Shown here: piece by piece, positions 30,151 to 49,638 of the stretch
How the letters are laid out: each line of letters begins with the position of its first letter
How positions within the stretch are numbered: position 1 is the stretch's first letter
Program-made: the position numbers and the translations under genes
Assembly (NCBI GenBank): GCA_009937605.1
Contig: JAACFG010000001.1
Span: 9,527 to 73,526, forward strand
Length of the DNA: 64,000 nucleotides
Reading direction: 5' to 3'
From: Gammaproteobacteria bacterium
GTDB lineage: Bacteria > Pseudomonadota > Gammaproteobacteria > Steroidobacterales > Woeseiaceae
The notes under the pieces: generated by a model
Databases searched by the model: none
Seen by the model: the letters and a program-made list of their open reading frames with translations, nothing else
Told to the model about the DNA's origin: nothing

Positions 30151-30166
30151 ATTGACCTGAGTCAAT
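30151..30166. promoter_or_regulatory. Perfect FNR/Dnr-type box upstream of the Dnr-like regulator (autoregulation?)
   Basis: ATTGAC-ctga-GTCAAT, with perfectly palindromic arms. The centre lies about 80 bp upstream of the MEKD start codon at 30239. Confidence 0.65.
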
Positions 30167-30238
30167 GCGCCAGACGGTGCCGGGACTAGACTGTGCCCGA
30201 TGATCCGAGTAAACCCCAAGGTGCTAGACTTCCCCAGC

Positions 30239-30922
30239 ATGGAGAAGGACACGGCACAGTATGAAGCGATTCGTCGTCACTACCTGTTTTCAGGTCTCGA
30301 CGAAGACGTTTTCGATGCGCTCGCGGCCGACATCACGGTTGAAGCCTACGACAAAGGCGAGGTGCTGTTTCATCGAGGCGACCCGGCGCAGGCTTTCTTC
30401 TTCATCGAGACTGGCCACGTCGAGCTGAGCCTGATATCTCCCGACGGCCAAAAGAAGACCGTCGAGGTCATCGACCACGACCGAACCTTCGCCGAGGCGT
30501 TGGTGTTCATACGCTCGGGCAAATTTCCGGTCAGTGCCGAAGCGCTGACAGCCACCGTCGTCTATCGAATCCCGAACGACCCGTACCGGACCCTGCTGCA
30601 CAACAACAACGATGCCTGCATGCGCCTGCTCAGTGACGTCTGCCGCCACTTGCACCAGCGCGTCCAGGAAATCGAGCAGCTGACCATCCAGAACGCACGA
30701 AGCCGGCTGTCCAGCTACCTGATCGACCATGCCACCGAGGTCGATGACGACGAGGCGACCATACGCCTTGACCTGCCCAAGCACGTCATCGCATCACGTC
30801 TGTCGATTACGCCCGAGACCCTGTCACGGCTTCTCCGCGTGATGTCCGAGGAGGGCATCCTGACGGTCGACGATCGCCTCATCTTTGTCCACAGCCTCGC
30901 GAGACTGCGCCCCTACGACTGA
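30239..30922 (+). CDS. dnr: Crp/Fnr-family regulator of the Dnr/NnrR (NO-responsive) type
   Basis: cNMP-like domain plus a C-terminal HTH with the E--SR recognition motif (ITPETLSRLL). It lacks the N-terminal Cys cluster of FNR. From memory, it aligns in length and layout with P. aeruginosa Dnr. Start chosen at MEKD; the tracked ORF starts at 30200. Confidence 0.75.
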   Translation: MEKDTAQYEAIRRHYLFSGLDEDVFDALAADITVEAYDKGEVLFHRGDPAQAFFFIETGHVELSLISPDGQKKTVEVIDHDRTFAEALVFIRSGKFPVSAEALTATVVYRIPNDPYRTLLHNNNDACMRLLSDVCRHLHQRVQEIEQLTIQNARSRLSSYLIDHATEVDDDEATIRLDLPKHVIASRLSITPETLSRLLRVMSEEGILTVDDRLIFVHSLARLRPYD

Positions 30923-30931
30923 AATCCCGCC

Positions 30932-30945
30932 TTGACCTAGGTCAT
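30932..30945. promoter_or_regulatory. FNR/Dnr-type box upstream of the heme-copper (NOR-like) operon
   Basis: TTGAC-ctag-GTCAT (one arm mismatch). It lies 10 bp after the dnr stop. The centre is about 55-80 bp upstream of the first small ORF starts (30994 or 31018). Confidence 0.6.
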
Positions 30946-31017: not shown

Positions 31018-31203
31018 ATGAGCATCGTCTATTTCACGCTGGTTGCAGCCCTTCTGTACCTTTTTTCGGACTGGGTACTGCAGCGCGTCGAAGTTGCCGT
31101 GGGCCGGCGCTTCGAGCACCGGTCGCTCATCTTCTTCGCCATCCTGCTGACGCTCGCGCTCACCAGTTTTTCGCTGCTTGGCAACATTACAGGCAGCGCC
31201 TAG
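31018..31203 (+). CDS. Small two-TM membrane protein (unknown), first ORF of the operon
   Basis: MSIVYFTLVAALLYLFSDWVL…SLIFFAILLTLALTSFSLL has two clear hydrophobic helices. Start is uncertain (30994 or 31018). Confidence 0.45.
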   Translation: MSIVYFTLVAALLYLFSDWVLQRVEVAVGRRFEHRSLIFFAILLTLALTSFSLLGNITGSA

Positions 31204-31229: not shown

Positions 31230-31406
31230 ATGTCTGACCATAACGAAGAAGTCGACGACAACACTCCGGACAATGAGCCGATTCCGCTGATGCAACGGGT
31301 GCTGGATAACCCGTTCCTCCTGCTGTTCTTAGGGATCGCGGTGCCGACGGTCTTTTATCTCATCTGGGGCATCATCGAAATCACCCAGATTCCGATCGCC
31401 GACTGA
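31230..31406 (+). CDS. Small single-TM protein with acidic N-terminus (possible accessory oxidase subunit)
   Basis: RBS-like gggagg upstream. MSDHNEEVDDNTPDNEPIPLMQRVLDNPFLLLFLGIAVPTVFYLIWGIIEI. Its position immediately before subunit II recalls small subunits such as ba3 IIa or CcoQ, which is an inference. Confidence 0.5.
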   Translation: MSDHNEEVDDNTPDNEPIPLMQRVLDNPFLLLFLGIAVPTVFYLIWGIIEITQIPIAD

Positions 31407-31425: not shown

Positions 31426-31959
31426 ATGGCTATAACACCACCGAGTGAACGGATCTGGTGGAAGGAACCGATCGCAAAGATCGAGCTCTCCTGGATCATC
31501 ATTGCCTTCACATGGGGCCTCATCATGTTCTTCATGATGATCTACTGGCACGGGGCTGGTGAACAGAACCTCTCCAATGAGGCGTACAAGATCAAACCCG
31601 AACGTTTTGCCGAGCACACCCAGGAAATGATTGACGCCTACACAGTGCGCAATGAGAGCGGTTTTCCGGTCGTGCATCCGCCGGCTGGCGACGATATCTA
31701 CCTGACGGGCCGCCTGTATAACTGGTGGCCGATACTCGAGCTGGAGAAAGACCAGACCTACCGCCTGCACCTGTCGTCGACCGATGTGCAACACGGCTTT
31801 TCGTTACAGCCTGTGAACATCAACGTCCAGGTGCACCCGGGCTATGACCTGGTCTTCACGATCAAGCCGGACAGGGCGGGCGAGTACGGCATCGTCTGTA
31901 ACGAATTCTGCGGGATCGGCCACCACCTGATGGTCGGCAAGATCTACGTCGTCGAGTAG
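31426..31959 (+). CDS. Heme-copper oxidase-family subunit II with one TM segment, a cupredoxin domain and an intact CuA site (NorY-like)
   Basis: H123 (VQHGFS) plus C158-N-E-F-C162-GIG-H166-HL-M169 is the complete CuA ligand set. 177 aa with one N-terminal TM segment. The small size is typical of B-family-type subunit II. Confidence 0.85.
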   Translation: MAITPPSERIWWKEPIAKIELSWIIIAFTWGLIMFFMMIYWHGAGEQNLSNEAYKIKPERFAEHTQEMIDAYTVRNESGFPVVHPPAGDDIYLTGRLYNWWPILELEKDQTYRLHLSSTDVQHGFSLQPVNINVQVHPGYDLVFTIKPDRAGEYGIVCNEFCGIGHHLMVGKIYVVE

Positions 31960-31971
31960 GGGAGTACGAAC

Positions 31972-33666
31972 ATGTCAAATAACACAGAATTTCGCACTTG
32001 CCCGACAACCGGCCTCAAGGTTGACCTGGCGGCTGAAAAGCTGATCAAGGTCAACGCAGTGGCCGCCGTCGTGTTCCTCGCAATCGGTGGGCTCTTCGGC
32101 CTGCTCGTCGCGCTGACGCGCTGGCCCGAGGTGCACTTGCTGCCAGCCGATTTCTTCTACCTGGCCCTGACCGCTCACGGTCTCGACGTCCTGCTGGTCT
32201 GGATCATCTTCTTCGAGATGGCCGTACTCTATTTCGCGTCGGCCGTTCTGCTGGGCAGTCGCCTGGCCGCCCCCAAGTTTGCGTGGGCGGGCTTTGTGCT
32301 AATGCTCGTCGGCGCAGTGATTACGAATATCGTCGTCCTGCAGGGCAAATCGAGCGTGATGTTTACGTCCTATGTACCATTGAAAGCCGAACCGGGCTTT
32401 TATCTCGGCATCATCCTGTTCGCCGTCGGTGCTTTGATCGGCTGCTTCGTGTTCTTCGCCACGCTGGTTGTGGCGCGCCAGGAACGAACCTACCAGGGGT
32501 CGATACCTCTGGTGACGTTTGGCGCCATGACGGCCGCTATCATTGCCGTCTTTACTATCGCATCCGGCGCGATCATCCTGATCCCGACGCTGCTCTGGTC
32601 CCTGGGCTACGTGGCCAACATCGACCCGATTCTCTATAAGACCATCTGGTGGGCCATGGGACACTCGTCGCAGCAAATCAACGTCGCTGCGCACGTGTCC
32701 ATCTGGTACGCGATTGCTGCCATGACCTTCGGCGCCAAACCACTGTCCGAGAAAGTCAGCCGCATGGCGTTTCTGATGTACATCCTGTTCCTGCAGATCG
32801 CCAGTGCTCACCACATGCTGGTGGAACCCGGGTTCAGCTCGGAATGGAAGATCTTCAACACGAGTTACGCCATGTACCTGGCCGTCCTCGGCAGCATGGT
32901 CCATGGCATGACCGTTCCCGGTTCGATCGAAGCGGCCCAGCGCTCGCGCGGCCTGAACAAGGGTATGTTCGAGTGGCTGCGCAAAGCGCCGTGGGGCAAC
33001 CCGGCGTTTGCCGGCATGTTCATGTCGCTCGTGTTCTTCGGGTTTATCGGCGGTATCTCCGGCGTGGTCATGGGAACCGAGCAGATCAACCTGATCATGC
33101 ACAACACGCTCTACGTTCCAGGTCACTTCCATGGCACTGTTGTGGCAGGCACGACGCTCGCGTTCATGGCGATCACCTATTACCTGGTGCCGCTGATCTT
33201 CCGCCGTGAGCTCATGTTCATGAAGCTGGCGAAGCTGCAGCCGTATGTGTTCGGTATCGGTGTTGCCGGCATCTCGGTATTCATGATGGGCGCCGGCACA
33301 CTTGGCGTTTCCCGCCGTCACTGGGACATGCAGTTCGCCGATGCGGTCCTGCCATTCGACTACCCCTCTGCCGCGTTCCTGATGATGGGTCTCAACGGTA
33401 TGTCAGCGGTACTCGCGGCGGTCGGCGGCATCATGTTTGTCGTTGTAGTGGTCGGTTCCGTGTTCTTCGGCCGCAAACTGGAGAAGGACGAGAAGCCGAG
33501 CTATCCGGAAGTGCCACCGCAATCCGCGGCGGTTGCCCAGCACGGCAGCGCTGAGTCCCTGAAGATTCCGGGCACGACGATGCTCGTCGCGATCTTCTTC
33601 ATCGCCTTTGTGCTGTACTACTTCGTTAACTGGAAATACCTGTCGGAGATCTGGCCTCTGAGCTAG
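31972..33666 (+). CDS. Heme-copper oxidase-family subunit I, B-family-like, lacking the cross-linked Tyr (NorS/sNOR-like candidate nitric oxide reductase)
   Basis: All six canonical His are present: H69 (LTAHG), H231 (WWAMGH), H280/H281 (ASAHHM) and H385/H387 (PGHFHG). The H+4 position is Gln235 (HSSQQ), where ba3 has HPIVY. Confidence 0.8.
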   Translation: MSNNTEFRTCPTTGLKVDLAAEKLIKVNAVAAVVFLAIGGLFGLLVALTRWPEVHLLPADFFYLALTAHGLDVLLVWIIFFEMAVLYFASAVLLGSRLAAPKFAWAGFVLMLVGAVITNIVVLQGKSSVMFTSYVPLKAEPGFYLGIILFAVGALIGCFVFFATLVVARQERTYQGSIPLVTFGAMTAAIIAVFTIASGAIILIPTLLWSLGYVANIDPILYKTIWWAMGHSSQQINVAAHVSIWYAIAAMTFGAKPLSEKVSRMAFLMYILFLQIASAHHMLVEPGFSSEWKIFNTSYAMYLAVLGSMVHGMTVPGSIEAAQRSRGLNKGMFEWLRKAPWGNPAFAGMFMSLVFFGFIGGISGVVMGTEQINLIMHNTLYVPGHFHGTVVAGTTLAFMAITYYLVPLIFRRELMFMKLAKLQPYVFGIGVAGISVFMMGAGTLGVSRRHWDMQFADAVLPFDYPSAAFLMMGLNGMSAVLAAVGGIMFVVVVVGSVFFGRKLEKDEKPSYPEVPPQSAAVAQHGSAESLKIPGTTMLVAIFFIAFVLYYFVNWKYLSEIWPLS

Positions 33667-33673
33667 GCAAATA

Positions 33674-34468
33674 ATGGATTATTTCCGTTTGCTTGTAGTC
33701 GTTTGTATCGTGGCCGGCGTTTCTGCCGGCCACGCTGCGACTGGGGCGCAGTCATACGACCGCAAAGACGCGCTCGAGATCAGCCAGGGCGCCATCGGGC
33801 GTGAACTCGACAACTACTCGCTGCGTGACGTCGATGGACAACCGTTTGACCTGGCACGGTTTCGTGGCAAGCCGCTGGTCATCAGTATGATTTACACAAG
33901 CTGTTACCACATCTGCCCGACGATTACCCGCAACCTCGGCGATACTATCGACGTCGCCCAGGAAGCGCTGGGTGAAGATGCGTTCTCCGTAATCACGGTG
34001 GGCTTCGACTGGAAAGTAGACACCCCGGAGCGCATGCGCAGTTTTGCCGCGGGCCTCGGTATGGATGACGTCCCGAACTGGCACTTTCTCGCGACCGAAG
34101 CACTTGTCGTCGACAAGCTAAGCGAAAACCTTGGCTTTTTGTTCTACCCCAGTGCGAAGGGCTTCGATCACCTGGCACAGGCAACCGTCATCGATGCTGA
34201 AGGCGAGATCTATCGCCAGGTGTATGGCGTCGACGTCGAGACCACAGCGATTGTCGAGCCACTCAAGGAACTTGTGTTCAACACACCACGAAGTGCCGGG
34301 TTCATCGAGCACTGGATGAGCACCTTCAGACTGTTCTGCACGGTTTACGATCCGAACAGCGACCGTTATCGCTTCGACTACTCCATTTTCATGGCGATAA
34401 TCGTCGGCGTCCTGTGTCTCGGCATGGTCGCCATATTCATCATCAGGGAATGGCGGCACGCACGCTAG
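33674..34468 (+). CDS. senC: SCO1/SenC-family copper chaperone with an additional C-terminal TM anchor
   Basis: Signal or anchor at the N-terminus. Thioredoxin-fold CxxxC (CYHICP) and a downstream His (GFDHLAQATVID). C-terminal hydrophobic FMAIIVGVLCLGMVAIFII. Confidence 0.8.
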   Translation: MDYFRLLVVVCIVAGVSAGHAATGAQSYDRKDALEISQGAIGRELDNYSLRDVDGQPFDLARFRGKPLVISMIYTSCYHICPTITRNLGDTIDVAQEALGEDAFSVITVGFDWKVDTPERMRSFAAGLGMDDVPNWHFLATEALVVDKLSENLGFLFYPSAKGFDHLAQATVIDAEGEIYRQVYGVDVETTAIVEPLKELVFNTPRSAGFIEHWMSTFRLFCTVYDPNSDRYRFDYSIFMAIIVGVLCLGMVAIFIIREWRHAR

Positions 34469-34475
34469 GAACGAT

Positions 34476-36011
34476 ATGGCATTGATCAAACGTGCCCTGG
34501 CACGCGCGTTCACCAGGTGCGAGGCGGTATTCGAGTACGCGTTCGGCCAGCGAAACAACCCTTTCGTCTGGCTGGGAGCGCTCGGCTGGTATTTCTACTG
34601 GATCGTCGCAGCTACCGGCGTCTACCTGTATATCTTCTTTGACACTGGCGTCACTGATGCCTATGCGTCGGTCGAGTACATCACCAACGAACAGTGGTAC
34701 GCGGCCGGCTTGATGCGCAGCCTGCACCGCTACGCATCCGATGCCCTGGTCGTCGTCATTGTCCTGCACATCTTCCGTGAGTTCGCCCATGATCGCCTGC
34801 GTGGCAGGCGCTTTTTTGCCTGGCTGACCGGCGTGCCGCTGCTCGCCTTTATCTACATCTGCGGCATCAGTGGCTACTGGCTGGTGTGGGACCAACTGGC
34901 ACAGTACATAGCAATAGCAACCACCGAGTGGCTCGACACCTTACCCATGTTTGGTGAGCCCATCGCCAATAACTTCCTCAACAACACCACGCTCGGCGGC
35001 CGCTTCTTCACGCTGATGGTATTCATTCATATCTTTGGGCCGCTGTTCATGCTGCTGTTGATGTGGGTACACATCCAGCGGCACTCCGGCGCGCGGGTGA
35101 ACCCGCCCAAAGAACTGGCAATCGGCACAATGGTCATGCTCGTGGTGCTGTCATTTGTTTACCCGGCCGTCAGCCAGGGTCCGGCCGACCTCGACTTGGT
35201 GCCGACGGACGTCGGACTCGACTGGTTCTACCTCGCTGCGTATCCATTGCTCGACATTGTGCCTGGCGGGCAGCTCTGGCTGTATATCGTCGGTGGCCTC
35301 GTGTTGCTGGCACTGCTTCCCTGGGCGCCACCCGCTAAGCCCGTCAAACCTGCCCTGGTCAATCTCGACAATTGCAACGGCTGTACGCGTTGCTTCGACG
35401 ACTGCCCGTTCGGCGCCATTTCCATGGTGCCGCGTAGTGACGGACGCGCCTATGATGTTGAGCCGGTCGTCAACGCCGCAAACTGCACCAGTTGCGGCAT
35501 ATGTGCCGGATCCTGCCCGACGTCCACACCGTTCCGGCGCGCGGTCCCGATCCAGCCCGGTATCGAACTGCCCGATCGAACGATCGGCGCCTTACGTGAA
35601 GAACTCATTGCGGAACCGGACACAGAAGCCGCGGGACCGCGGGTACTCGTCTTCGGCTGCGACACGAGCAATGTCGATGAATTGCACGGGGACGGCACGC
35701 GCGTGATCAAGCTGCCGTGCGTCGGCATGCTGCCGCCATCTTTCGTCGACTTTGCCCTGTCGCGCCGCTTCGCGGACGGCGTCATGATTGCCGGCTGTGC
35801 CGAGTGCGACTGCTACCATCGCCTGGGCAACGAATGGACCATGGCTCGCATGGCGGGCGAGCGAGATCCATATCTGCGCAAGCGCGTAGATACGCGCCGT
35901 CTGTCATTGAACTGGTTGCCGCGCAATGCGGGACGCCGGCGCAGAAAGGCCCTTGAGGCGTTCCACTCGGCGTTGGCCGGCATTGACCTGAAGGAGACAG
36001 ACGATGAATAG
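34476..36011 (+). CDS. Fusion protein: cytochrome b (N-terminal, di-heme-like) + 2x[4Fe-4S] ferredoxin + MvhD/FlpD-like domain
   Basis: Cytochrome b-like His pairs (RSLHRYASDALVVVIVLHIFREF; FFTLMVFIHIFGPLFMLLLMWVHIQRH). CNGCTRCFDDCP and CTSCGICAGSCP cluster motifs. C-terminal FGCD…KLPCVGML…ADGVMIAGCAECDCYH matches the hydrogenase delta-subunit-like domain. Confidence 0.8.
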   Translation: MALIKRALARAFTRCEAVFEYAFGQRNNPFVWLGALGWYFYWIVAATGVYLYIFFDTGVTDAYASVEYITNEQWYAAGLMRSLHRYASDALVVVIVLHIFREFAHDRLRGRRFFAWLTGVPLLAFIYICGISGYWLVWDQLAQYIAIATTEWLDTLPMFGEPIANNFLNNTTLGGRFFTLMVFIHIFGPLFMLLLMWVHIQRHSGARVNPPKELAIGTMVMLVVLSFVYPAVSQGPADLDLVPTDVGLDWFYLAAYPLLDIVPGGQLWLYIVGGLVLLALLPWAPPAKPVKPALVNLDNCNGCTRCFDDCPFGAISMVPRSDGRAYDVEPVVNAANCTSCGICAGSCPTSTPFRRAVPIQPGIELPDRTIGALREELIAEPDTEAAGPRVLVFGCDTSNVDELHGDGTRVIKLPCVGMLPPSFVDFALSRRFADGVMIAGCAECDCYHRLGNEWTMARMAGERDPYLRKRVDTRRLSLNWLPRNAGRRRRKALEAFHSALAGIDLKETDDE

Positions 36012-36495
36012 ACTCGTACAGGTCGTCCTCTACGCCGCATTTGCGGTGGGCATCGGGTACTTCTCCCTGTCGCCGCCGTACCAGTATGCGGACGAGGAGA
36101 TGGCGTCGATCAAGCTGTCACTCAGCCACGCCGCCAAGCGCGTCGAAGACTGCGTCAAGCTGACACCCGACGAAATCAACAGGCGCGCCCTCGCAGGCGA
36201 GCCGATATCCGAGTGTGGCCGCGAACGCCTGCCGCTGACGATCGAGCTGGAGATAGACGGAGTCATCGTGTTCCGCGATGAGCCGCTGCCGTCAGGCCTG
36301 TGGAGCGACGGCCCGGCATCGGTCTACGAGCGCTTCGAGCTTGCACCCGGCCCCCACATTATTACCGCCAGGCTTCGCGATACCGCGCGCGAGCATGGCT
36401 GGGATTACTCACACAGTGACGAGGTAGTGCTCTTGCCCGGGCGCTATTTCTCGATTACGTTCCGGGCCGAGACGGGAGGTTTCAGGTACCGATGA
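36004..36495 (+). CDS. Hypothetical membrane-anchored protein
   Basis: 8-nt overlap with the upstream gene and an ATGA overlap with the hemerythrin gene. N-terminal TM segment (VVLYAAFAVGIGYF). No recognisable motif. Confidence 0.6.
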   Translation: MNRLVQVVLYAAFAVGIGYFSLSPPYQYADEEMASIKLSLSHAAKRVEDCVKLTPDEINRRALAGEPISECGRERLPLTIELEIDGVIVFRDEPLPSGLWSDGPASVYERFELAPGPHIITARLRDTAREHGWDYSHSDEVVLLPGRYFSITFRAETGGFRYR

Positions 36496-36884
36496 CTTTA
36501 ATAGCCTGGAGAAACGAGTTCAGCGTCGGTGTCGATGCGGTCGATCATGAGCATCGCGAGATGATTGCGCTAATCAATGAGCTCGACGAAGCGATGCAGG
36601 ACGACGCCAGCCAGGCGACCGTCGTCGAAGCACTTGGTGAAATTTATGCCCGGATCTCAGCCCACTTCGCGCTCGAGGAAAAGACGATGCGCGATGCGCG
36701 CTACAGCCAGCTTGCCGAGCACAAGCAGGACCACGAGCAGCTACTCGATGAGCTGCTCGATGTGATTGACAGTGTCGACGATGAAGGCCGCTACGATCGA
36801 GCGGACTTGTCGAGGAGCCTCGACCGCTGGTTTTCGGACCACTTTCGAACACACGATGCCAGGCTGCATCACGAGTTAGGTTGA
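36492..36884 (+). CDS. Bacteriohemerythrin-like di-iron protein
   Basis: Hemerythrin ligand pattern: VDHEHREM, HFALEE, HKQDHEQL, FSDHFRTHDARL. 130 aa. Confidence 0.85.
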   Translation: MTLIAWRNEFSVGVDAVDHEHREMIALINELDEAMQDDASQATVVEALGEIYARISAHFALEEKTMRDARYSQLAEHKQDHEQLLDELLDVIDSVDDEGRYDRADLSRSLDRWFSDHFRTHDARLHHELG

Positions 36885-37008: not shown

Positions 37009-41368
<4,360 letters not shown>

Positions 41369-41430
41369 GTACTTTCCCATGACTCGGGCAGTTCGAATAC
41401 TGAATTGTCCCCCTTTGGTGCGCGGCAACC

Positions 41431-41444
41431 ATGATCTAGGTCAA
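41431..41444. promoter_or_regulatory. FNR/Dnr-type box upstream of the TonB-receptor-nirS transcription unit
   Basis: On the minus strand this reads TTGAC-ctag-ATCAT, with the same CTAG core as the box at 30932. The centre is about 70 bp upstream of the 41368 start codon. Confidence 0.6.
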
Positions 41445-43026: not shown

Positions 43027-43257
43027 GCTCTTGTTAAATAAGATTTAATCTCAACAAGAATCCGGGGCTCAGCATTGCATGGCTGTCGCGATTTCAGTAA
43101 ACTGCGCGAGCTTTTTTGACCGGCACGGCGGTCAAACCGGCCGAAAAGCGAATCTCCGGCATGACCGGGCCAGCAGGACGCTGGCGATCCCAGTATTCGC
43201 GACTTCCGGAAATTGAAATGATTGCGATCGTGGCGACGGTTGCAGGGTGGACAAGTA

Positions 43258-45648
43258 ATGATACGAAAATCGTTCCTGAGCCTGGTGGGCCTGGTTCTGG
43301 CAAGCACGGCGAAAGCCGACTGGGCGCTCAACATGCCCAGGGGCGTAACCGATCTCAGCGTCGAGACGTTCGAACTGCACATGATGGTCTTCTGGTGGTG
43401 CGTTGCCATCGGGGTCGTCGTTTTCGGCGTCATGATCATCTCGCTGTTCAAGCACAGAAAGTCGAAAGGCGCGGAACCTGCGTCGTTCTCTCACAGTACG
43501 GTTGCGGAGGTCATCTGGACGGCGATTCCCGTTGTCATACTGCTGATCATGGCGGTGCCGGCAGCGGAGACGATGATCCGGCTCGAAGATTCCCGCGACC
43601 CTGATATATCCATCGTGGTCACGGGCTACCAATGGAAGTGGCACTACAAATACCAGGACGAAGGCATTGAGTTCTACTCGAGCCTCGCGCGCCCGAGCCT
43701 GGCCGCCCGTCCGAAGCAATCGGGCGTCGACGTGAACAGCGTTGAGAACTACCTGCTTGAAGTTGACCGCCCCCTGGTCGTGCCGAGGGGCGCAAAAGTT
43801 CGCGTGCTGCTGACATCAAATGACGTCATCCACTCGTGGTGGGTTCCTGATTTGGCAATCAAGAAAGACGCTATTCCAGGCATCGTTAACGAAACCTGGT
43901 TCAACGCCAATGAAACCGGCACTTTTCGCGGCCAGTGCGCCGAGTTGTGCGGCAAGGATCACGGCTACATGCCGGTCGTTGTCGAAGTGGTTGAGCCCGA
44001 GGCCTACCAGGCCTGGGTCAACACCCACAGTGATGGCGAAGAAAGACTCGCCAGCACACACGACGCACACGCCGCGGACCACGACGAACATGGCCCCGAG
44101 AAGGGCATCAAGCGCTGGTTGTTCTCAACCAACCACAAAGACATTGGCACGATGTACCTCATCTTCAGCCTCGTCATGTTCTTTGTTGGCGGCGCAATGG
44201 CGATGGTCATTCGCTCGGAACTAGCTGTCCCGGGCCTGCAATTCGTTCATCCGGAGTTCTTCAACTCGATGACCACGATGCACGCTTTGATCATGGTCTT
44301 CGGCGCAGTAATGCCGGCCTTCGTTGGCCTCGCCAACTGGATGATCCCGCTGATGATCGGCGCACCCGACATGGCGCTGCCACGCATGAACAACTGGTCG
44401 TTCTGGATCCTGCCGGTCGCGTTCGGCATCCTGCTTTCGACGCTCCTTATGCCGGGCGGCGCTCCTGCCAGTGGCTGGACGATGTACCCGCCGCTCGTCC
44501 TTCAGACCGGCGATGCGTTCCCGTTCCTGATTTTCTCCGTCCACCTGATGGGCATCTCGTCGATCATGGGCTCCATCAACGTGATCGTGACGATCATCAA
44601 CATGCGCGCGCCTGACATGACGCTGCTCAAGATGCCGATGTTTGTGTGGACCTGGCTGATTACCGCGTATCTGTTGATCGCCGTGATGCCGGTACTGGCT
44701 GGCGCGGTTACCATGCTGCTGACCGACCAGTTCTTCGGCACGAGCTTCTTCCTCGCGGCCGGCGGTGGCGATCCCGTCATGTTCCAGCACATCTTCTGGT
44801 TCTTCGGGCACCCCGAGGTCTACATCATGATTCTGCCGGCCTTCGGTGTCGTATCAGAAATCATCCCGACGTTCTCGCGCAAGAAACTGTTCGGTCACGA
44901 CTCGATGGTATACGCGGCATCGTGTATCGCATTCCTGTCGTTCATCGTCTGGGCGCACCACATGTTCACGGTGGGCATGCCGTTAACGGGCCAGCTGTTC
45001 TTCATGTTCGCGACAATGCTCATCGCTGTTCCGACCGGTGTGAAGATTTTCAACTGGGTTGCGACGATGTGGCGCGGCTCGATGACGTTCGAGACGCCGA
45101 TGCTGTTCTCGCTGGCATTCGTCTTCCTGTTCACAATCGGTGGTTTCTCCGGCCTGATGCTCGCGATCCAGCCAGCGGATGTGCAGTACCACGACAGCTA
45201 TTTCGTTGTGGCTCACTTCCACTACGTACTGGTCCCGGGTTCGGTCTTCGCGATCATGGCGGGCGCCTACTACTGGCTCCCGAAGTGGACCGGCCATATG
45301 TATAACGAGGGTCTCGGCAAGCTGCACTTCTGGACCTCGACGATCTTCGTGAACCTCACGTTCTTCCCAATGCACTTCCTTGGGCTGGCCGGCATGCCGC
45401 GTCGTATCCCGGACTACTCAACCCAGTTCACGGACTTCAACACGATCGCCAGTGTCGGCGCCATTGGCTTCGGCCTGTCGCAATTGCTGTTCGTGCTTGT
45501 GATTTTGACCGCAAAGAAGGGCGCCAAGGCGACCGACCGGGTTTGGGAAGGTTCGCACGGTCTCGAATGGACGGTACCGTCGCCGGCGCCGTGGCACACG
45601 TTTACGACGCCGCCGAAAGCGCGCATCGCTAACGAATCTTTCGAGTAG
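43258..45648 (+). CDS. aa3-type cytochrome c oxidase subunit II and subunit I encoded as one uninterrupted ORF
   Basis: N-terminal part: signal peptide, 2 TM segments and CuA (HSWWVPDL…CAELCGKDHGYM). From about residue 270: STHDAHAADHDEHGPEKGIKRWLFSTNHKDIGTMYL… is a full CoxA. I verified codon by codon that there is no stop between them (43981-44160). Confidence 0.8.
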   Translation: MIRKSFLSLVGLVLASTAKADWALNMPRGVTDLSVETFELHMMVFWWCVAIGVVVFGVMIISLFKHRKSKGAEPASFSHSTVAEVIWTAIPVVILLIMAVPAAETMIRLEDSRDPDISIVVTGYQWKWHYKYQDEGIEFYSSLARPSLAARPKQSGVDVNSVENYLLEVDRPLVVPRGAKVRVLLTSNDVIHSWWVPDLAIKKDAIPGIVNETWFNANETGTFRGQCAELCGKDHGYMPVVVEVVEPEAYQAWVNTHSDGEERLASTHDAHAADHDEHGPEKGIKRWLFSTNHKDIGTMYLIFSLVMFFVGGAMAMVIRSELAVPGLQFVHPEFFNSMTTMHALIMVFGAVMPAFVGLANWMIPLMIGAPDMALPRMNNWSFWILPVAFGILLSTLLMPGGAPASGWTMYPPLVLQTGDAFPFLIFSVHLMGISSIMGSINVIVTIINMRAPDMTLLKMPMFVWTWLITAYLLIAVMPVLAGAVTMLLTDQFFGTSFFLAAGGGDPVMFQHIFWFFGHPEVYIMILPAFGVVSEIIPTFSRKKLFGHDSMVYAASCIAFLSFIVWAHHMFTVGMPLTGQLFFMFATMLIAVPTGVKIFNWVATMWRGSMTFETPMLFSLAFVFLFTIGGFSGLMLAIQPADVQYHDSYFVVAHFHYVLVPGSVFAIMAGAYYWLPKWTGHMYNEGLGKLHFWTSTIFVNLTFFPMHFLGLAGMPRRIPDYSTQFTDFNTIASVGAIGFGLSQLLFVLVILTAKKGAKATDRVWEGSHGLEWTVPSPAPWHTFTTPPKARIANESFE

Positions 45649-45763: not shown

Positions 45764-46291
45764 ATGCATCGTAATCTCGTAACATCGTTGTTGGTGGTCG
45801 TTGTCGGAGCGTTTGCTTTCGGCTACGCGCTCGTGCCGCTTTACGACGTGTTCTGCGAGATCACGGGCTTCGGCGGTCGCACCAATGCGGAAGCCGTGGC
45901 CAGGGTTGAGGCGCCGGACCTGTCGCGCGAGATTCGGATTGAGTTCGTCACGACGATCAACTCGTACGCACCATTCGAGTTCGGAGCCGACGCGGACAGC
46001 ATGATGGTCAACCCGGGCAAGATGTACTTCGCGACGTTTACCGCGAAGAATCTGACCGACAAGGACAAGGTTGCCCAGGCCGTGCCGAGCGTTGCACCCG
46101 GGGCGGCCGCGGAACACTTCGTGAAGATCGAGTGTTTTTGCTTCGACCAGCAGGAATTCCTCGCGAACGAAGAGCGGGCCATGCCACTGCAGTTCATTGT
46201 CGATCCGGACCTGCCGGATTACGTAGACACCATTACCCTGCAATACACATTCTTCGACACCGCTCCTGTGGCGTCGAATAAAAAATACTGA
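45764..46291 (+). CDS. ctaG: Cytochrome c oxidase assembly protein Cox11/CtaG
   Basis: N-terminal TM segment and the copper-binding CFCF motif ([11 protein letters not shown]). 175 aa. Confidence 0.9.
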
Positions 46292-46310: not shown

Positions 46311-47180
46311 ATGACCACTCACACAGACGAACATTATTACGTCCCACACGGCAGCCACTGGCCCGTTGTCGGCTCAATCGGCCTGCTGTTCCTGATGACT
46401 GGCGTATCAAGCTGGTTGAACGGCGCGGATTTTGGCTTCTACGTAATGCTGGTGGGCTTTGCCATACTCATCTTTATGATTACTGGCTGGTTCGGCACGG
46501 TGATCGGCGAAAGCCAGAGCGGTCTGTACAACGCACAGGTAGACAAGTCTTTCCGTCAGGGCATGTTCTGGTTCATCTTCTCGGAGGTCATGTTCTTCGC
46601 GGCCTTCTTCGGCGCGCTGTTCTACGCACGCAATATGTCGATTCCCTGGCTTGGCGGCGACAGCAACAACTTTTTTACAAACCTGCTCTTGTGGGAAGGC
46701 TACGAAAGCACCTGGCCGACCAACGGCCCGGGGAACGTTGGCGGAGAATACGAGATAATGCCGCCGTTCGGCCTGCCGCTGATCAACACGGCGCTGCTGC
46801 TAACGTCATCGATCACGGTGACGATCGCACACCACGCACTGATCGAGGGCAGGCGTGCGCAGCTGAAGCTGTTCCTCGCTGCCACGTTCCTGCTTGGCTT
46901 CATATTCGTCTACCTGCAAGGCGTCGAGTACATCCATGCCTACCAGGACCTGAACCTGAAGCTCACGTCAGGCATCTACGGATCGACGTTCTTCATGCTG
47001 ACCGGCTTCCACGGCATGCACGTGACGATTGGCGCCATCATGCTGACGATCATGTTCTTCCGTGTATTGAAGGGGCACTTCACAGCGGAGAACCATTTCG
47101 CGTTCGAGGCTGTCGCCTGGTACTGGCACTTTGTCGACGTTGTCTGGATCGGCCTGTACGTCTTCGTCTACTGGATGTAA
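46311..47180 (+). CDS. coxC: Cytochrome c oxidase subunit III
   Basis: 289 aa, 7 TM segments. TGFHGMHVTIGAIML and WYWHFVDVVW motifs. Confidence 0.9.
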   Translation: MTTHTDEHYYVPHGSHWPVVGSIGLLFLMTGVSSWLNGADFGFYVMLVGFAILIFMITGWFGTVIGESQSGLYNAQVDKSFRQGMFWFIFSEVMFFAAFFGALFYARNMSIPWLGGDSNNFFTNLLLWEGYESTWPTNGPGNVGGEYEIMPPFGLPLINTALLLTSSITVTIAHHALIEGRRAQLKLFLAATFLLGFIFVYLQGVEYIHAYQDLNLKLTSGIYGSTFFMLTGFHGMHVTIGAIMLTIMFFRVLKGHFTAENHFAFEAVAWYWHFVDVVWIGLYVFVYWM

Positions 47181-47416: not shown

Positions 47417-48151
47417 TTGGACAGGGGCGGGCAGTATATCGTGAACACCGGGACGAAAAAGCAACTGCCGAGCTGGCTTCCGCTCGTCGTCGGCGCGCTG
47501 CTCGTCGCCCAGTTCGCCGGGCTGGGCGCCTGGCAAATCAGCCGCGGGCTCGAGAAACGAGCGGACCAACAGATGTTCCGCGATGAGACCGGATTCGCCT
47601 CCTGGCATGATGGCATGGAAGTCCGGCCGTTCCAGCGAATCAAAGCAACCGGCAGCTACGATGGCGCCCACCAGGTACTGCTCGAGAACATTATCGTTAA
47701 CAGCCGCTATGGCTACTACGTGATCACGCCATTGGTCGGTCTCGATGGCGAGCCCGTTCTGCTCGTCAACCGCGGCTGGATCGAGAAGACCACTGAACCG
47801 CTGGACATGACGCGCCTCGACGTTCCACCCGGGCGCGTGACAGTGCGTGGCCGGGCGGGATCACTACCACGAGCCGGAATGAAGATGGGCGAAGCCTTCC
47901 GGCCCGGGCAGGATTGGCCGATGGAGGCTGTCTATCCATCGACAGAGGAGGTAGCCGTGGCGCTCGGCACCGACGTCCAGCCATTTGTCCTGCTTATGGA
48001 TCATGAGGAAGACAGCGGCTTCTTCCGTCACTGGGTGCCGACCGAGTTCGGTCCTGGCAAGCACTTCGGCTACGCGCTGCAGTGGTTTGCCATGGCCGCT
48101 GTCCTGTCCGGCCTCCTGGCCTGGAACTACCGTAAGAAGCGCTTCAAGTAA
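47417..48151 (+). CDS. SURF1-family cytochrome oxidase assembly protein
   Basis: N-terminal TM segment followed by GLGAWQISRGLEKR (the SURF1 'WQ..R' motif), and a C-terminal TM segment YALQWFAMAAV. The start is TTG 47417 or GTG 47441. Confidence 0.8.
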   Translation: MDRGGQYIVNTGTKKQLPSWLPLVVGALLVAQFAGLGAWQISRGLEKRADQQMFRDETGFASWHDGMEVRPFQRIKATGSYDGAHQVLLENIIVNSRYGYYVITPLVGLDGEPVLLVNRGWIEKTTEPLDMTRLDVPPGRVTVRGRAGSLPRAGMKMGEAFRPGQDWPMEAVYPSTEEVAVALGTDVQPFVLLMDHEEDSGFFRHWVPTEFGPGKHFGYALQWFAMAAVLSGLLAWNYRKKRFK

Positions 48152-48726: not shown

Positions 48727-49638
48727 ATGGACAATGCATTGAACACGAGAGTAGAGGCCTACATCGCCTGGCGCGATTACTACGAGCTGACCAAGCCGCG
48801 TGTCGTCATGTTGATCGTATTCACGGCAATCGTCGGTATGTTTGTTTCTGTGCCCGGCTGGCCCGGCGCCATGCCACTCATTTTTGGCACGCTCGGCATT
48901 GGGCTCGCGTCATCGTCGGCTGCAGTCTACAACCACGTGCTTGATGCGCGCATCGACATCCAGATGATGCGCACGCGGGGTCGCCCGTTGCCGCAAGGCA
49001 AGTTGACAGAGAGGTCCGCAATCACGTTTGCGACCGTGCTGTGCATCATCTCAATGCTGATCCTCTGGTTCCTCGTGAACCCGCTGACAGCGATCCTCAC
49101 TTTCTGTTCACTGATTGGCTATGCGGTCGTTTACACAGCATGGTTAAAGCGCGCGACGCCGCAAAATATTGTGATCGGTGGGGCGGCGGGTGCTGCGCCG
49201 CCCGTTCTCGGCTGGACGTCAGTGACCAACCAGGTCGAAGCCGGGGCCTTGCTGATGTTCCTTATCGTGTTCGTGTGGACACCACCGCACTTCTGGGCGC
49301 TGGCGATCGCGCGCAAGGAAGAGTACGCCAAGGTCGACATCCCGATGTTGCCCGTCACGCATGGTGAGGCGTACACGCGACTCAATATTCTGCTGTATAC
49401 GATCCTGCTCGTACTCGTCACGATCCTGCCGTACCTGATCGGCATGAGTGGCATTATCTACCTGCTGGTCGCGCTCGTGCTCGACGCGTACTTCCTGTAC
49501 TACGCCATCCAGATGTACCGAGTGCGTGACGACATGGAATTGCCGATGAAGACCTTCAAGTTCTCCATCAGCTATCTAGGGTTCCTGTTCGCAGCGCTGC
49601 TCGTCGATCACTACCTGTTGTTCCAGATCAGCCTGTAG
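48727..49638 (+). CDS. cyoE: Protoheme IX farnesyltransferase (heme O synthase)
   Basis: YYELTKPRVV…, UbiA-family Asp-rich motif NHVLDARID, multi-TM, 303 aa. Confidence 0.9.
   Translation: MDNALNTRVEAYIAWRDYYELTKPRVVMLIVFTAIVGMFVSVPGWPGAMPLIFGTLGIGLASSSAAVYNHVLDARIDIQMMRTRGRPLPQGKLTERSAITFATVLCIISMLILWFLVNPLTAILTFCSLIGYAVVYTAWLKRATPQNIVIGGAAGAAPPVLGWTSVTNQVEAGALLMFLIVFVWTPPHFWALAIARKEEYAKVDIPMLPVTHGEAYTRLNILLYTILLVLVTILPYLIGMSGIIYLLVALVLDAYFLYYAIQMYRVRDDMELPMKTFKFSISYLGFLFAALLVDHYLLFQISL

What the first reader, a model, noticed from the sequence alone, without database searches (positions are those of the whole stretch)
32662..32676. Active-site helix VI reads H-S-S-Q-Q: Gln occupies the position of the cross-linked Tyr (O2 reductases) or the FeB-ligating Glu (cNOR)
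All six canonical heme and CuB His ligands are present (H69, H231, H280, H281, H385, H387). The residue four positions after the first CuB His is Gln235. In T. thermophilus ba3 this position is the His233-Tyr237 cross-link partner. In P. aeruginosa cNOR it is Glu211, a ligand of FeB (His207+4). A neutral amide here fits neither paradigm. It raises two questions: which metal (Cu or Fe) occupies the site, and how protons and electrons are delivered.
Basis: partly seen in the sequence, partly recalled or inferred. Interest (0 to 1): 0.7.

Follow-up and report, generated by a model that had tools for sequence, protein, structure and literature searches.

The report
Known eNOR nitric oxide reductase signature
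The glutamine that replaces the catalytic tyrosine in this oxidase-like gene is real and strictly conserved, but it is the published hallmark of the eNOR family of nitric oxide reductases, so the gene is an ordinary member of a known denitrification enzyme family that databases mislabel as a cytochrome oxidase.

Summary
Bases 32662-32676 encode H231-S-S-Q-Q235 in a 564-aa heme-copper oxidoreductase subunit I (31972..33666, +). All six metal-ligand His are present, and Gln235 aligns to Tyr237 of T. thermophilus ba3. Gln235 is invariant in 443/443 relatives at 41-100% identity.

The reading "fits neither paradigm" is out of date. A Gln at this site is the published diagnostic of the eNOR family (Hemp & Gennis 2008, as cited in PMC8756737). 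The Rhodothermus marinus eNOR has been purified; it reduces NO and not O2 (PMC11214002).

The window gene meets every eNOR feature I could test:
- an adjacent CuA subunit II;
- conserved K-channel-like residues;
- a monophyletic Gln clade with haloarchaeal, Chloroflexi and Thermus members;
- a neighbouring nirS;
- FNR/Dnr-type boxes upstream.

Electrons most likely enter through CuA and protons through a cytoplasmic K-type channel. The active-site metal (Fe or Cu) is unresolved, both here and in the main text of the key paper.

One detail may be new. All 443 Gln-class proteins also carry Tyr299 on helix VIII, and the canonical Thr that H-bonds a CuB ligand is hydrophobic in the members examined. 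I could not measure the geometry.

Verdict: already known, low interest.

The parts
32662..32676 (+). H231-S-S-Q234-Q235 motif on helix VI. H231 is a ligand of the active-site metal. Q235 occupies the position of the cross-link Tyr; this is the eNOR diagnostic.
   Evidence: Q235 is invariant in 443/443. The diagnostic status comes from PMC8756737.
31972..33666 (+). eNOR subunit I, 564 aa, heme-copper oxidoreductase catalytic subunit. Metal ligands: H69, H231, H280, H281, H385, H387. K-channel-like residues: Y246, S308, H311, T314.
   Evidence: Pfam COX1 1.6e-67. Best PDB sequence and fold match is ba3. AF2 model pLDDT 83, pTM 0.87. Conservation.
32866..32868 (+). Tyr299 at the first turn of helix VIII. 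Invariant in the Gln class and never Tyr in the Tyr-bearing relatives. It lies two residues before Met301, which aligns with ba3 Thr302, the H-bond partner of CuB ligand H282.
   Evidence: The Thr302-His282 H-bond is from PMC10766771. Its role is inferred; the geometry was not measured.
31426..31959 (+). eNOR subunit II, 177 aa: one TM helix plus a cupredoxin domain with a complete CuA site (H123, C158, C162, H166, M169; E160 in the C-x-E-x-C motif). E20 aligns with ba3 E15(II), the K-channel entrance.
   Evidence: Pfam COX2. CuA motif present in 83/83 loci. CuA ligands invariant in 81/81 and E20 in 80/81.
31230..31406 (+). Small single-TM protein of 58 aa directly upstream of subunit II. Its position matches that of ba3 subunit IIa (inferred).
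   Evidence: tblastn finds it in 81-82 of 83 related loci at the same position. No family match.
31018..31203 (+). Small 2-TM ORF of 61 aa, the first gene after the FNR-type box. Function unknown.
   Evidence: Conserved in 45 related loci. No family match.
30932..30945 (+). FNR/Dnr-type box TTGACCTAGGTCAT upstream of the operon.
   Evidence: Five matches in the window against 0.97 expected. The box lies within 600 nt upstream of the small subunit gene in 58/78 related loci, against a background of 0.087 per kb.
30200..30922 (+). Crp/Fnr-family transcription regulator, with its own box TTGACCTGAGTCAA at 30152-30165.
   Evidence: Pfam cNMP_binding plus HTH_Crp_2. Box.
33674..34468 (+). SCO1/SenC copper chaperone, presumably for CuA assembly (inferred).
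   Evidence: Pfam SCO1-SenC 4.2e-14. Present in 75/83 related loci.
34476..36011 (+). Fusion protein: cytochrome b6-like di-heme membrane domain, extra TM helices, 2x[4Fe-4S], and an MvhD/FlpD-like domain. Role unknown; possibly electron input or maturation.
   Evidence: Present in 71/83 related loci.
36004..36495 (+). Conserved hypothetical membrane-anchored protein of 163 aa.
   Evidence: No Pfam or NCBIfam match. Present in 69/83 related loci.
36492..36884 (+). Bacteriohemerythrin, the last gene of the operon.
   Evidence: NCBIfam bact_hemeryth 2.6e-28. Present in 65/83 related loci.
37009..39150 (-). NirS cytochrome cd1 nitrite reductase, which produces NO. It has two N-terminal c-type heme domains (CXXCH at residues 62 and 217).
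   Evidence: Pfam Cytochrom_D1 2.4e-147 plus two cytochrome c domains. CXXCH motifs.
41431..41444 (-). FNR/Dnr-type box TTGACCTAGATCAT upstream of the TonB-dependent receptor gene (39188..41428, -), which precedes nirS.

Best explanation
The gene is the catalytic subunit of an eNOR-type nitric oxide reductase. eNOR is a B-family-derived heme-copper oxidoreductase that reduces 2 NO to N2O during denitrification. Shown here: the fold, the six His ligands, Gln235 at the cross-link Tyr site, the CuA subunit II, the conserved K-channel-like residues, the operon, the nirS neighbour and the FNR/Dnr boxes. Inferred mechanism: electrons from a periplasmic donor enter at CuA in subunit II, pass to the low-spin heme (ligands H69/H387), and then reach the high-spin heme (H385) and the non-heme metal held by H231, H280 and H281. 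NO reduction needs only two electrons, so the redox-active His-Tyr cofactor is dispensable, and without it the enzyme cannot carry out four-electron O2 reduction. Protons are taken from the cytoplasm along E20(II), T314, Y246, H311 and S308 up to Gln235/Gln234, which would make the reaction electrogenic. Gln235 acts as a neutral H-bonding or weakly ligating residue at the metal site. The metal is expected to be Fe, by analogy with other NORs, but this is unproven. Expression is driven by a Dnr/FNR-type regulator together with nirS.
For: - Q235 aligns to ba3 Y237. A Gln at this site is the published eNOR diagnostic (PMC8756737).
- Purified R. marinus eNOR reduces NO (0.68 per s), does not reduce O2, and contains heme As (PMC11214002).
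- Q235 is invariant in 443/443 relatives, with synonymous codon turnover.
- The Gln class is monophyletic (91% NJ bootstrap). It contains a haloarchaeal, Chloroflexi (including an Ardenticatenales MAG) and a Thermus protein.
- 21 of 118 Thermus-type relatives have Lys in place of H387. This is the His/Lys variant that PMC11214002 ascribes to 'some eNORs'.
- The CuA ligands are invariant in subunit II.
- The K-channel equivalents are conserved: S308, Y246 and H311 are invariant, position 314 is mostly T or S, and E20(II) is present in 80/81. This matches the published prediction.
- nirS lies adjacent.
- FNR/Dnr boxes occur upstream of the regulator gene, the operon and the nirS unit, and upstream of the operon in 58/78 relatives.
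- eNOR is reported as the most abundant and most expressed nor clade in estuarine sediments where Woeseiales-dominated Pseudomonadota lead the net N2O producers (PMC13592168). The closest relatives of the window protein are Woeseiaceae MAGs.
Against: - No activity data exist for this protein or for any proteobacterial eNOR that I could find.
- I could not obtain the sequence of the characterised R. marinus enzyme (Rmar_0161) or of the Magnetospirillum enzyme. Membership therefore rests on the diagnostic residue plus lineages that the literature names as eNOR-bearing.
- The window operon lacks the heme o synthase gene found in 64/83 relatives, and no heme a synthase was seen in the window, so the heme type is unknown.
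- The metal identity is untested.
- The proton pathway is inferred from alignment only. No coordinates were available to me from the model.
Confidence: 0.9

Rival explanations
1. It is a B-family (ba3-type) terminal oxidase that still reduces O2, either without the cross-linked Tyr or with a relocated Tyr (Tyr299 on helix VIII) taking over, as the helix-VII Tyr does in cbb3 oxidases.
For: The best sequence and fold matches are ba3 oxidases. A Tyr (Y299) is invariant in all 443 Gln-class proteins and absent from the Tyr-bearing relatives. It lies next to the position of the Thr that H-bonds a CuB ligand. Databases annotate the protein as a cytochrome c oxidase.
Against: Purified R. marinus eNOR showed no O2 reduction with several donors (PMC11214002). 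The authors report no evidence for a migrated Tyr able to form a cross-linked cofactor. No Tyr sits 6-7 residues before the HH pair, where I recall the cbb3 Tyr to be; those residues are Leu274 and Gln275 (sequence). The gene neighbours nirS and shares its FNR/Dnr-type box.
Confidence: 0.04
2. It is an NO-handling enzyme used mainly for detoxification or sensing, or it acts on another small molecule (for example NO dismutation or N2O reduction), rather than serving as a respiratory, energy-conserving NOR.
For: The reported turnover of eNOR is low (0.68 per s). The operon carries a hemerythrin and an unusual cytochrome b-FeS-MvhD fusion of unknown role. Only 16/83 related loci have nirS within 8 kb.
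Against: N2O was the measured product of the purified eNOR, and R. marinus denitrifies with eNOR as its only recognised NOR. The conserved K-channel-like residues argue for coupling to the membrane potential. nirS is adjacent here and shares the same box.
Confidence: 0.05
3. It is a decaying or non-functional oxidase paralogue in which the catalytic Tyr was lost by drift.
For: The catalytic Tyr is missing, and a complete aa3-type oxidase cluster lies 10 kb away in the same window.
Against: Q235 and about 100 other positions are invariant across 41-100% identity in several phyla. Codons turn over synonymously. A multi-gene operon and its promoter box are conserved in most of 83 loci.
Confidence: 0.01

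Closest known systems
eNOR family of nitric oxide reductases (Hemp & Gennis 2008; Murali et al. 2024, PMC11214002; R. marinus Rmar_0161 is the characterised member)
   Same: Gln at the cross-link Tyr position. All six His ligands. An adjacent CuA cupredoxin subunit II. K-channel-like residues, including the Ser equivalent to ba3 S309. A phylogenetic position next to B-family-type O2 reductases. A denitrification context.
   Different: Nothing that was tested contradicts membership. This operon lacks the heme o synthase gene present in most proteobacterial relatives. Both low-spin heme ligands are His, not the His/Lys variant. The direct comparison with Rmar_0161 was not possible.
B-family O2 reductase (T. 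thermophilus cytochrome ba3, PDB 1EHK/1XME)
   Same: Closest solved structure (TM 0.77, 26-27% identity). Same metal-ligand His residues, a CuA subunit II, a small IIa-like subunit, and a single K-type channel.
   Different: Tyr237 is replaced by Gln235. Thr302, the partner of CuB ligand H282, is replaced by Met301. Thr312 is replaced by His311. Tyr299 is new. The enzyme is expected to reduce NO, not O2.
cNOR / qNOR (P. aeruginosa NorBC; C. necator pHG1 NorB)
   Same: Same superfamily and the same predicted reaction. The residue at His+4 on helix VI is the family-defining one.
   Different: cNOR and qNOR have Glu there as a fourth FeB ligand (H-L-W-V-E). They use a cytochrome c subunit or a fused N-terminal domain instead of CuA. 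[quoted passage not shown]
sNOR and bNOR (CuANOR of Bacillus azotoformans)
   Same: NORs related to the B-family that carry a neutral amide side chain at this site. So a neutral amide here is not unique to eNOR. bNOR is reported to be electrogenic (PMC11214002).
   Different: They carry Asn rather than Gln (Table A4 of PMC8756737) and form separate clades.
Archaeal 'H-x-x-Q-Y' oxidases (Hodarchaeales and Thermoproteota; possibly the 'K family' of the FIND preprint 10.1101/592808)
   Same: Nearest relatives at 35-46% identity. They share Q234, N237, Y246, S308 and H311. The joint clade has 94% NJ bootstrap support.
   Different: They keep Tyr at position 235, have V/L/I at 299 and mostly L at 304, and are presumably O2 reductases.

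Membership tests
eNOR | Gln at the position of the His-cross-linked Tyr (His+4 on helix VI) | tested here: met
   Q235 aligns to ba3 Y237 in the HMMER and L-INS-i alignments. The diagnostic status is stated in PMC8756737.
eNOR | Heme-copper oxidoreductase subunit I with all six canonical His ligands | tested here: met
   Pfam COX1. H69, H231, H280, H281, H385 and H387. Fold match to ba3.
eNOR | Adjacent cupredoxin subunit II with an intact CuA site | tested here: met
   The gene at 31426..31959 has H123, C158, C162, H166 and M169. The motif is present in 83/83 related loci.
eNOR | Conserved K-channel-like residues, including the Ser equivalent to ba3 S309 | tested here: met
   S308, Y246 and H311 are invariant; position 314 is mostly T or S; E20(II) is present in 80/81.
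eNOR | Groups with recognised eNORs and apart from Tyr-bearing O2 reductases | tested here: met
   NJ tree: the Gln class is monophyletic at 91% and includes a haloarchaeal, Chloroflexi and a Thermus (His/Lys variant) protein. These are lineage proxies only.
eNOR | Sequence relationship to the biochemically characterised enzymes (R. marinus Rmar_0161; M. magnetotacticum 'cytochrome a1-like' protein) | not tested
   Neither sequence surfaced in three homology searches, the genome scan or the plasmid search.
eNOR | No conserved Tyr that could replace the cross-link Tyr | tested here: inconclusive
   No Tyr sits 6-7 residues before the HH pair, where I recall the cbb3 Tyr to be (L274/Q275). However, Tyr299 on helix VIII is invariant and class-specific, and its distance to the site could not be measured. 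PMC11214002 reports no migrated cross-link Tyr.
eNOR | Reduces NO to N2O and does not reduce O2 | not testable with these tools
   Known only for R. marinus eNOR.
eNOR | Heme a-type (As) cofactors, with heme o/a synthase genes often in the operon | tested here: inconclusive
   A heme o synthase gene lies between subunit I and Sco in 64/83 relatives but not in the window. The window's ctaB sits in the aa3 cluster at 48727..49638. No ctaA was seen.
B-family O2 reductase | Tyr at His+4 on helix VI forming the His-Tyr cofactor | tested here: not met
   The residue is Gln235.
cNOR / qNOR | Glu at His+4 as the fourth FeB ligand, plus a cytochrome c subunit or a fused N-terminal domain | tested here: not met
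   The residue is Gln, not Glu. The partner subunit is a CuA cupredoxin.
sNOR / bNOR | Asn at this position | tested here: not met
   The residue is Gln235 (Table A4).
gNOR | One active-site His replaced by Asp, and a subunit II lacking CuA ligands | tested here: not met
   All three active-site His and all CuA ligands are present.
nNOR | cNOR-like active site (Glu) and a His/Met-ligated low-spin heme | tested here: not met
   Q235, with H69 and H387 both His.

The most novel reading that the evidence does not exclude
The eNOR site may keep copper rather than iron. Its ligand set is the same neutral three-His set as CuB, with only a neutral amide (Gln235) added. No NorQ/NorD-type iron-insertion genes were seen in the window operon. 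If the metal is copper, this would be a dedicated, probably electrogenic, heme-copper NO reductase. In that reading, Gln235 and the class-specific Tyr299 (which appears where the canonical Thr partner of a metal-ligand His has been lost) would form the proton-delivery and H-bond network that replaces the His-Tyr cofactor. That would break the proposed rule 'CuB for O2, FeB for NO'.
Probability: 0.2. Interest if true: 0.6.

Novelty: already known. Interest (0 to 1): 0.2.

Why it matters
The finding has practical value for annotation. [quoted passage not shown] At least 571 GTDB species representatives encode a relative of this protein. A 2026 study reports eNOR as the most abundant and most expressed nor clade in estuarine sediments (PMC13592168). 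Correct annotation therefore changes greenhouse-gas budgets inferred from metagenomes. Mechanistically, eNOR is a natural experiment in turning an O2 reductase into an NO reductase with very few changes. Here only Y235Q, X299Y and X304A separate all 443 members from their Tyr-bearing relatives. The family may also conserve energy through a retained proton channel. The metal identity and the role of Tyr299 remain open.

Tried and rejected
- I tried to reach the characterised R. marinus and Magnetospirillum eNOR sequences through three homology searches, a GTDB genome scan and a plasmid tblastn. None returned them by name, so membership rests on lineage proxies.
- The profile-versus-sequence comparison (hhalign) of the eNOR alignment with C. 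necator qNOR was uninformative (probability 0.4%). MAFFT mis-registered helix VI of qNOR. The Glu equivalence therefore rests on the His+4 register and on published Table A4.
- The strict FNR consensus TTGAT-N4-ATCAA gave only chance-level matches. The relaxed Dnr-type pattern was the informative one.
- Structure prediction returns no coordinates, so I could not measure any distance around Gln235 or Tyr299.
- The sigma-70 promoter scan was at or below chance.
- Literature searches for an eNOR cryo-EM structure and for 'Glu211/His207' found nothing in the held library.
- Rejected ideas: a pseudogene (conservation rules it out); a register shift bringing Tyr246 to the catalytic position (it aligns to ba3 Tyr248); Glu285 as an eNOR-specific acidic ligand (Asp/Glu occupies this position in nearly all B-type and Tyr-class relatives too).
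Full report
OBSERVATION. Window bases 32662-32676 (CAC TCG TCG CAG CAA) encode H231-S-S-Q-Q235 in a 564-aa ORF at 31972..33666 on the + strand. The protein is a heme-copper oxidoreductase (HCO) subunit I (Pfam COX1, E=1.6e-67). Its closest solved relatives are the B-family cytochrome ba3 oxidases of Thermus thermophilus (E about 1e-47). In the HMMER alignment to 1ehk_A, whose residue numbers are the native ones, GHSSQQ lies over G232-H233-P-I-V-Y237. The other five ligand His (H69, H280, H281, H385, H387) lie over ba3 H72, H282, H283, H384 and H386. An independent L-INS-i alignment with ba3, 12 B-type sequences and 5 close Tyr-bearing relatives gives the same register for H233, Y237, H282 and H283. 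An AlphaFold2 model built from 70 sequences (pLDDT 83, pTM 0.87) matches ba3 best by Foldseek (TM 0.77, 26-27% identity).

CONSERVATION. Gln235 is invariant in all sampled Gln-class homologues. These comprise 120 close proteins (85% identity or more), 80 GTDB species representatives (70-91%), 119 Chloroflexi-type proteins, 118 proteins from Thermus, Armatimonadota, Anaerolineae and Burkholderiales, and named proteins from a Defluviimonas plasmid, a T. thermophilus NAR1 megaplasmid, Thermomicrobium roseum and the haloarchaeon Natrarchaeobius. In total this is 443/443 at 41-100% identity. Across 84 loci the codon is CAG 77 times and CAA 7 times. The nucleotides drift while the amino acid is held, which is purifying selection. 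The extended signature is G-H-x-x-Q-Q-[IV]-N.

WHAT IT IS. The literature already names this feature. Schwartz et al. [quoted passage not shown] Their Table A4, modified from Hemp & Gennis 2008, lists the residue at this site as Y for O2 reductases, E for cNOR and qNOR, N for sNOR and CuANOR, D for gNOR and Q for eNOR. Murali et al. 2024 (PMC11214002) purified the eNOR of Rhodothermus marinus. It reduces NO (kcat 0.68 per s at 25 C), does not reduce O2 with several donors, and carries heme As in both heme sites. [quoted passage not shown]

MEMBERSHIP TESTS. Each of these features could be checked here.
- Subunit II (31426..31959) has a complete CuA site (H123, C158, C162, H166, M169). The ligands are invariant in 81/81 related loci, and the C-x3-C-x3-H-x2-M motif is present in 83/83.
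- The K-channel equivalents are conserved. S308 (ba3 S309), Y246 (Y248) and H311 (T312) are invariant, position 314 (T315) is mostly T or S, and E20 of subunit II is present in 80/81.
- The T. thermophilus NAR1 homologue reads GHFK at the second low-spin ligand, as do 21 of 118 of its relatives. This matches the His/Lys variant described for eNOR.
- In a neighbour-joining tree with 200 bootstraps, the Gln class is monophyletic (91%). Tyr-bearing archaeal 'H-x-x-Q-Y' proteins form the grade immediately outside it (joint clade 94%), and canonical B-type oxidases lie further out. This agrees with the FIND preprint, which says that eNOR clusters closely with a 'K family' of O2 reductases.
- One test could not be run. 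Neither Rmar_0161 nor the Magnetospirillum protein appeared in any search, so direct comparison with a characterised enzyme is missing.

CONTEXT. The gene sits in an operon that is conserved across 83 related loci:
- a small single-TM protein in the position of ba3 subunit IIa (81 loci);
- subunit II (83);
- subunit I (83);
- a heme o synthase in 64 relatives, absent from the window;
- Sco (75);
- a cytochrome b6-like / 2x[4Fe-4S] / MvhD-like fusion (71);
- a hypothetical protein (69);
- a bacteriohemerythrin (65).

Directly downstream on the opposite strand lies nirS, whose product makes the NO substrate. A Crp/Fnr-family regulator lies upstream. A Dnr/FNR-type box, TTGAY-N4-RTCAW, occurs five times in the window against 0.97 expected. 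Three of these sites are informative: before the regulator gene (30152), before the operon (30932), and before the TonB-receptor/nirS unit (41431). The same box lies within 600 nt upstream of the operon in 58 of 78 related loci, against a background of 0.087 per kb. No other NOR, nosZ or nar gene was found in the window. The nearest relatives are Woeseiaceae and other Gammaproteobacteria MAGs. A 2026 study reports eNOR as the most abundant and most expressed nor clade in estuarine sediments whose net N2O producers are led by Woeseiales-dominated Pseudomonadota.

MECHANISM. The parts list above is shown; the following is inferred. Electrons enter at CuA from a periplasmic donor, pass to the low-spin heme (H69/H387), and reach the binuclear site formed by the high-spin heme (H385) and the metal held by H231, H280 and H281. 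Two NO molecules are reduced to N2O. This is a two-electron reaction, so the redox-active His-Tyr cofactor is not required, and its absence explains the loss of O2 reduction. Protons arrive from the cytoplasm through the K-type channel that ends at Gln235/Gln234, which would make the reaction electrogenic.

- The electron route is answered by the invariant CuA site.
- The proton route is answered provisionally by the conserved channel residues.
- The metal question is not answered. The main text of PMC11214002 contains no metal analysis and treats FeB in the new NOR families as a pattern still to be verified. As I recall, the Bacillus CuANOR, which has Asn at this site, contains non-heme iron. 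A neutral amide would therefore be compatible with FeB, but this rests on memory and is not a test.

A POSSIBLY NEW DETAIL. I compared the 443 Gln-class proteins with 11 'H-x-x-Q-Y' relatives and 12 B-type oxidases. Eight positions are at least 97% conserved in the Gln class while at most one 'H-x-x-Q-Y' relative carries that residue. Only three of them are invariant (443/443) and have a residue that does not appear in the listed residues of either outgroup: Q235 (Tyr elsewhere), Y299 (V/L/I or F/V/T elsewhere) and A304 (L/V/S/I elsewhere). Y299 is the second residue of helix VIII in the model. In aa3 and ba3 oxidases a conserved Thr/Ser on helix VIII (bovine T309, ba3 T302) H-bonds a CuB His ligand (H290, H282) (PMC10766771 and PMC10598403). 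In the careful alignment ba3 T302 falls on Met301, and that position is hydrophobic in all eight Gln-class members shown. So the second sphere around ligand H280 appears to have been remodelled together with the Tyr-to-Gln change. I could not measure whether Tyr299 reaches Gln235 or H280, because no coordinates were available. Murali et al. state that they found no migrated Tyr able to form a cross-link, and the purified enzyme does not reduce O2. A restored oxidase cofactor is therefore unlikely; an H-bonding or proton-donating role is possible.

VERDICT. The gene is a typical, database-mislabelled proteobacterial eNOR. Interest is low. Its residual value lies in annotation, in the still-open metal question, and in the Tyr299/Met301 co-variation.

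Noticed in passing
window 32866-32874 (Y299, A300, M301 of subunit I): Tyr299 is invariant in all 443 Gln-class proteins and is never Tyr in the 23 Tyr-bearing relatives. Met301 aligns with ba3 Thr302, the canonical H-bond partner of a CuB His ligand, so that Thr has been lost. Ala304 is the only other fully class-specific invariant. The papers I could read do not mention this.
   Followed up: partly
window 37009..39150 (-): The NirS has two N-terminal c-type heme domains (CXXCH at residues 62 and 217) before the d1 domain, giving 713 aa. PMC8756737 states that a C1-C2-NirS architecture is unique to Chloroflexi. This is a di-cytochrome NirS in a Woeseiaceae-like gammaproteobacterium next to an eNOR, and similar NirS proteins (58-66% identity) occur in some related loci. 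I did not test whether the first domain is homologous to their C1.
   Followed up: partly
window 34476..36011 (+): A 511-aa fusion comprises a cytochrome b6-like di-heme domain (H84/H98 and H185/H199), further TM helices, two [4Fe-4S] motifs and an MvhD/FlpD-like domain. It is conserved directly downstream of eNOR-Sco in 71/83 loci and is followed by a hypothetical protein (69/83) and a hemerythrin (65/83). Its role in eNOR function, whether electron input, maturation or sensing, is unknown.
   Followed up: partly
window 43222..45648 (+): In the aa3-type oxidase cluster, coxB (CuA motif at residue 239) reads straight into coxA (GHPEVY at residue 529) with no stop codon. This gives one 808-aa ORF, an apparent natural fusion of subunits II and I. 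It is followed by ctaG (45764..46291), coxC (46311..47180), surf1 (47417..48151) and ctaB (48727..49638). I did not check whether relatives share the fusion.
   Followed up: no
L082 (T. thermophilus NAR1 plasmid 4, NZ_LR027520.1) and L084: The Thermus denitrification megaplasmid carries nar, nirS, a multicopper-oxidase (NirK-like) gene and an eNOR with a His/Lys low-spin heme ligand. No norCB is annotated in the 47 kb inspected. eNOR may be the NOR of this strain.
   Followed up: partly
representative proteins P0182, P0193, P0201, P0248: A set of distant homologues, one of them from Dehalococcoidia, reads H-[VI]-[NY]-H-Y-P on helix VI. They appear to have Tyr in place of the first His of the HH pair and in place of the high-spin heme ligand His (Y-H and Y-x-H). 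This is either an alignment artefact or an HCO lineage with altered metal ligands.
   Followed up: no
window 31018..31203 (+) and 31230..31406 (+): Two small membrane-protein genes precede subunit II. One is a 61-aa 2-TM ORF conserved in 45 loci. The other is a 58-aa single-TM protein with an acidic N-terminus, conserved in 81-82 loci. Neither has a family match. The second sits where ba3 has subunit IIa.
   Followed up: partly
public annotation of P0001, P0022, P0027, L081-L083: [quoted passage not shown] NCBIfam has no model that reaches its cutoff for this protein: the best hit is CtaD at 74 bits against a cutoff of 671.
   Followed up: yes
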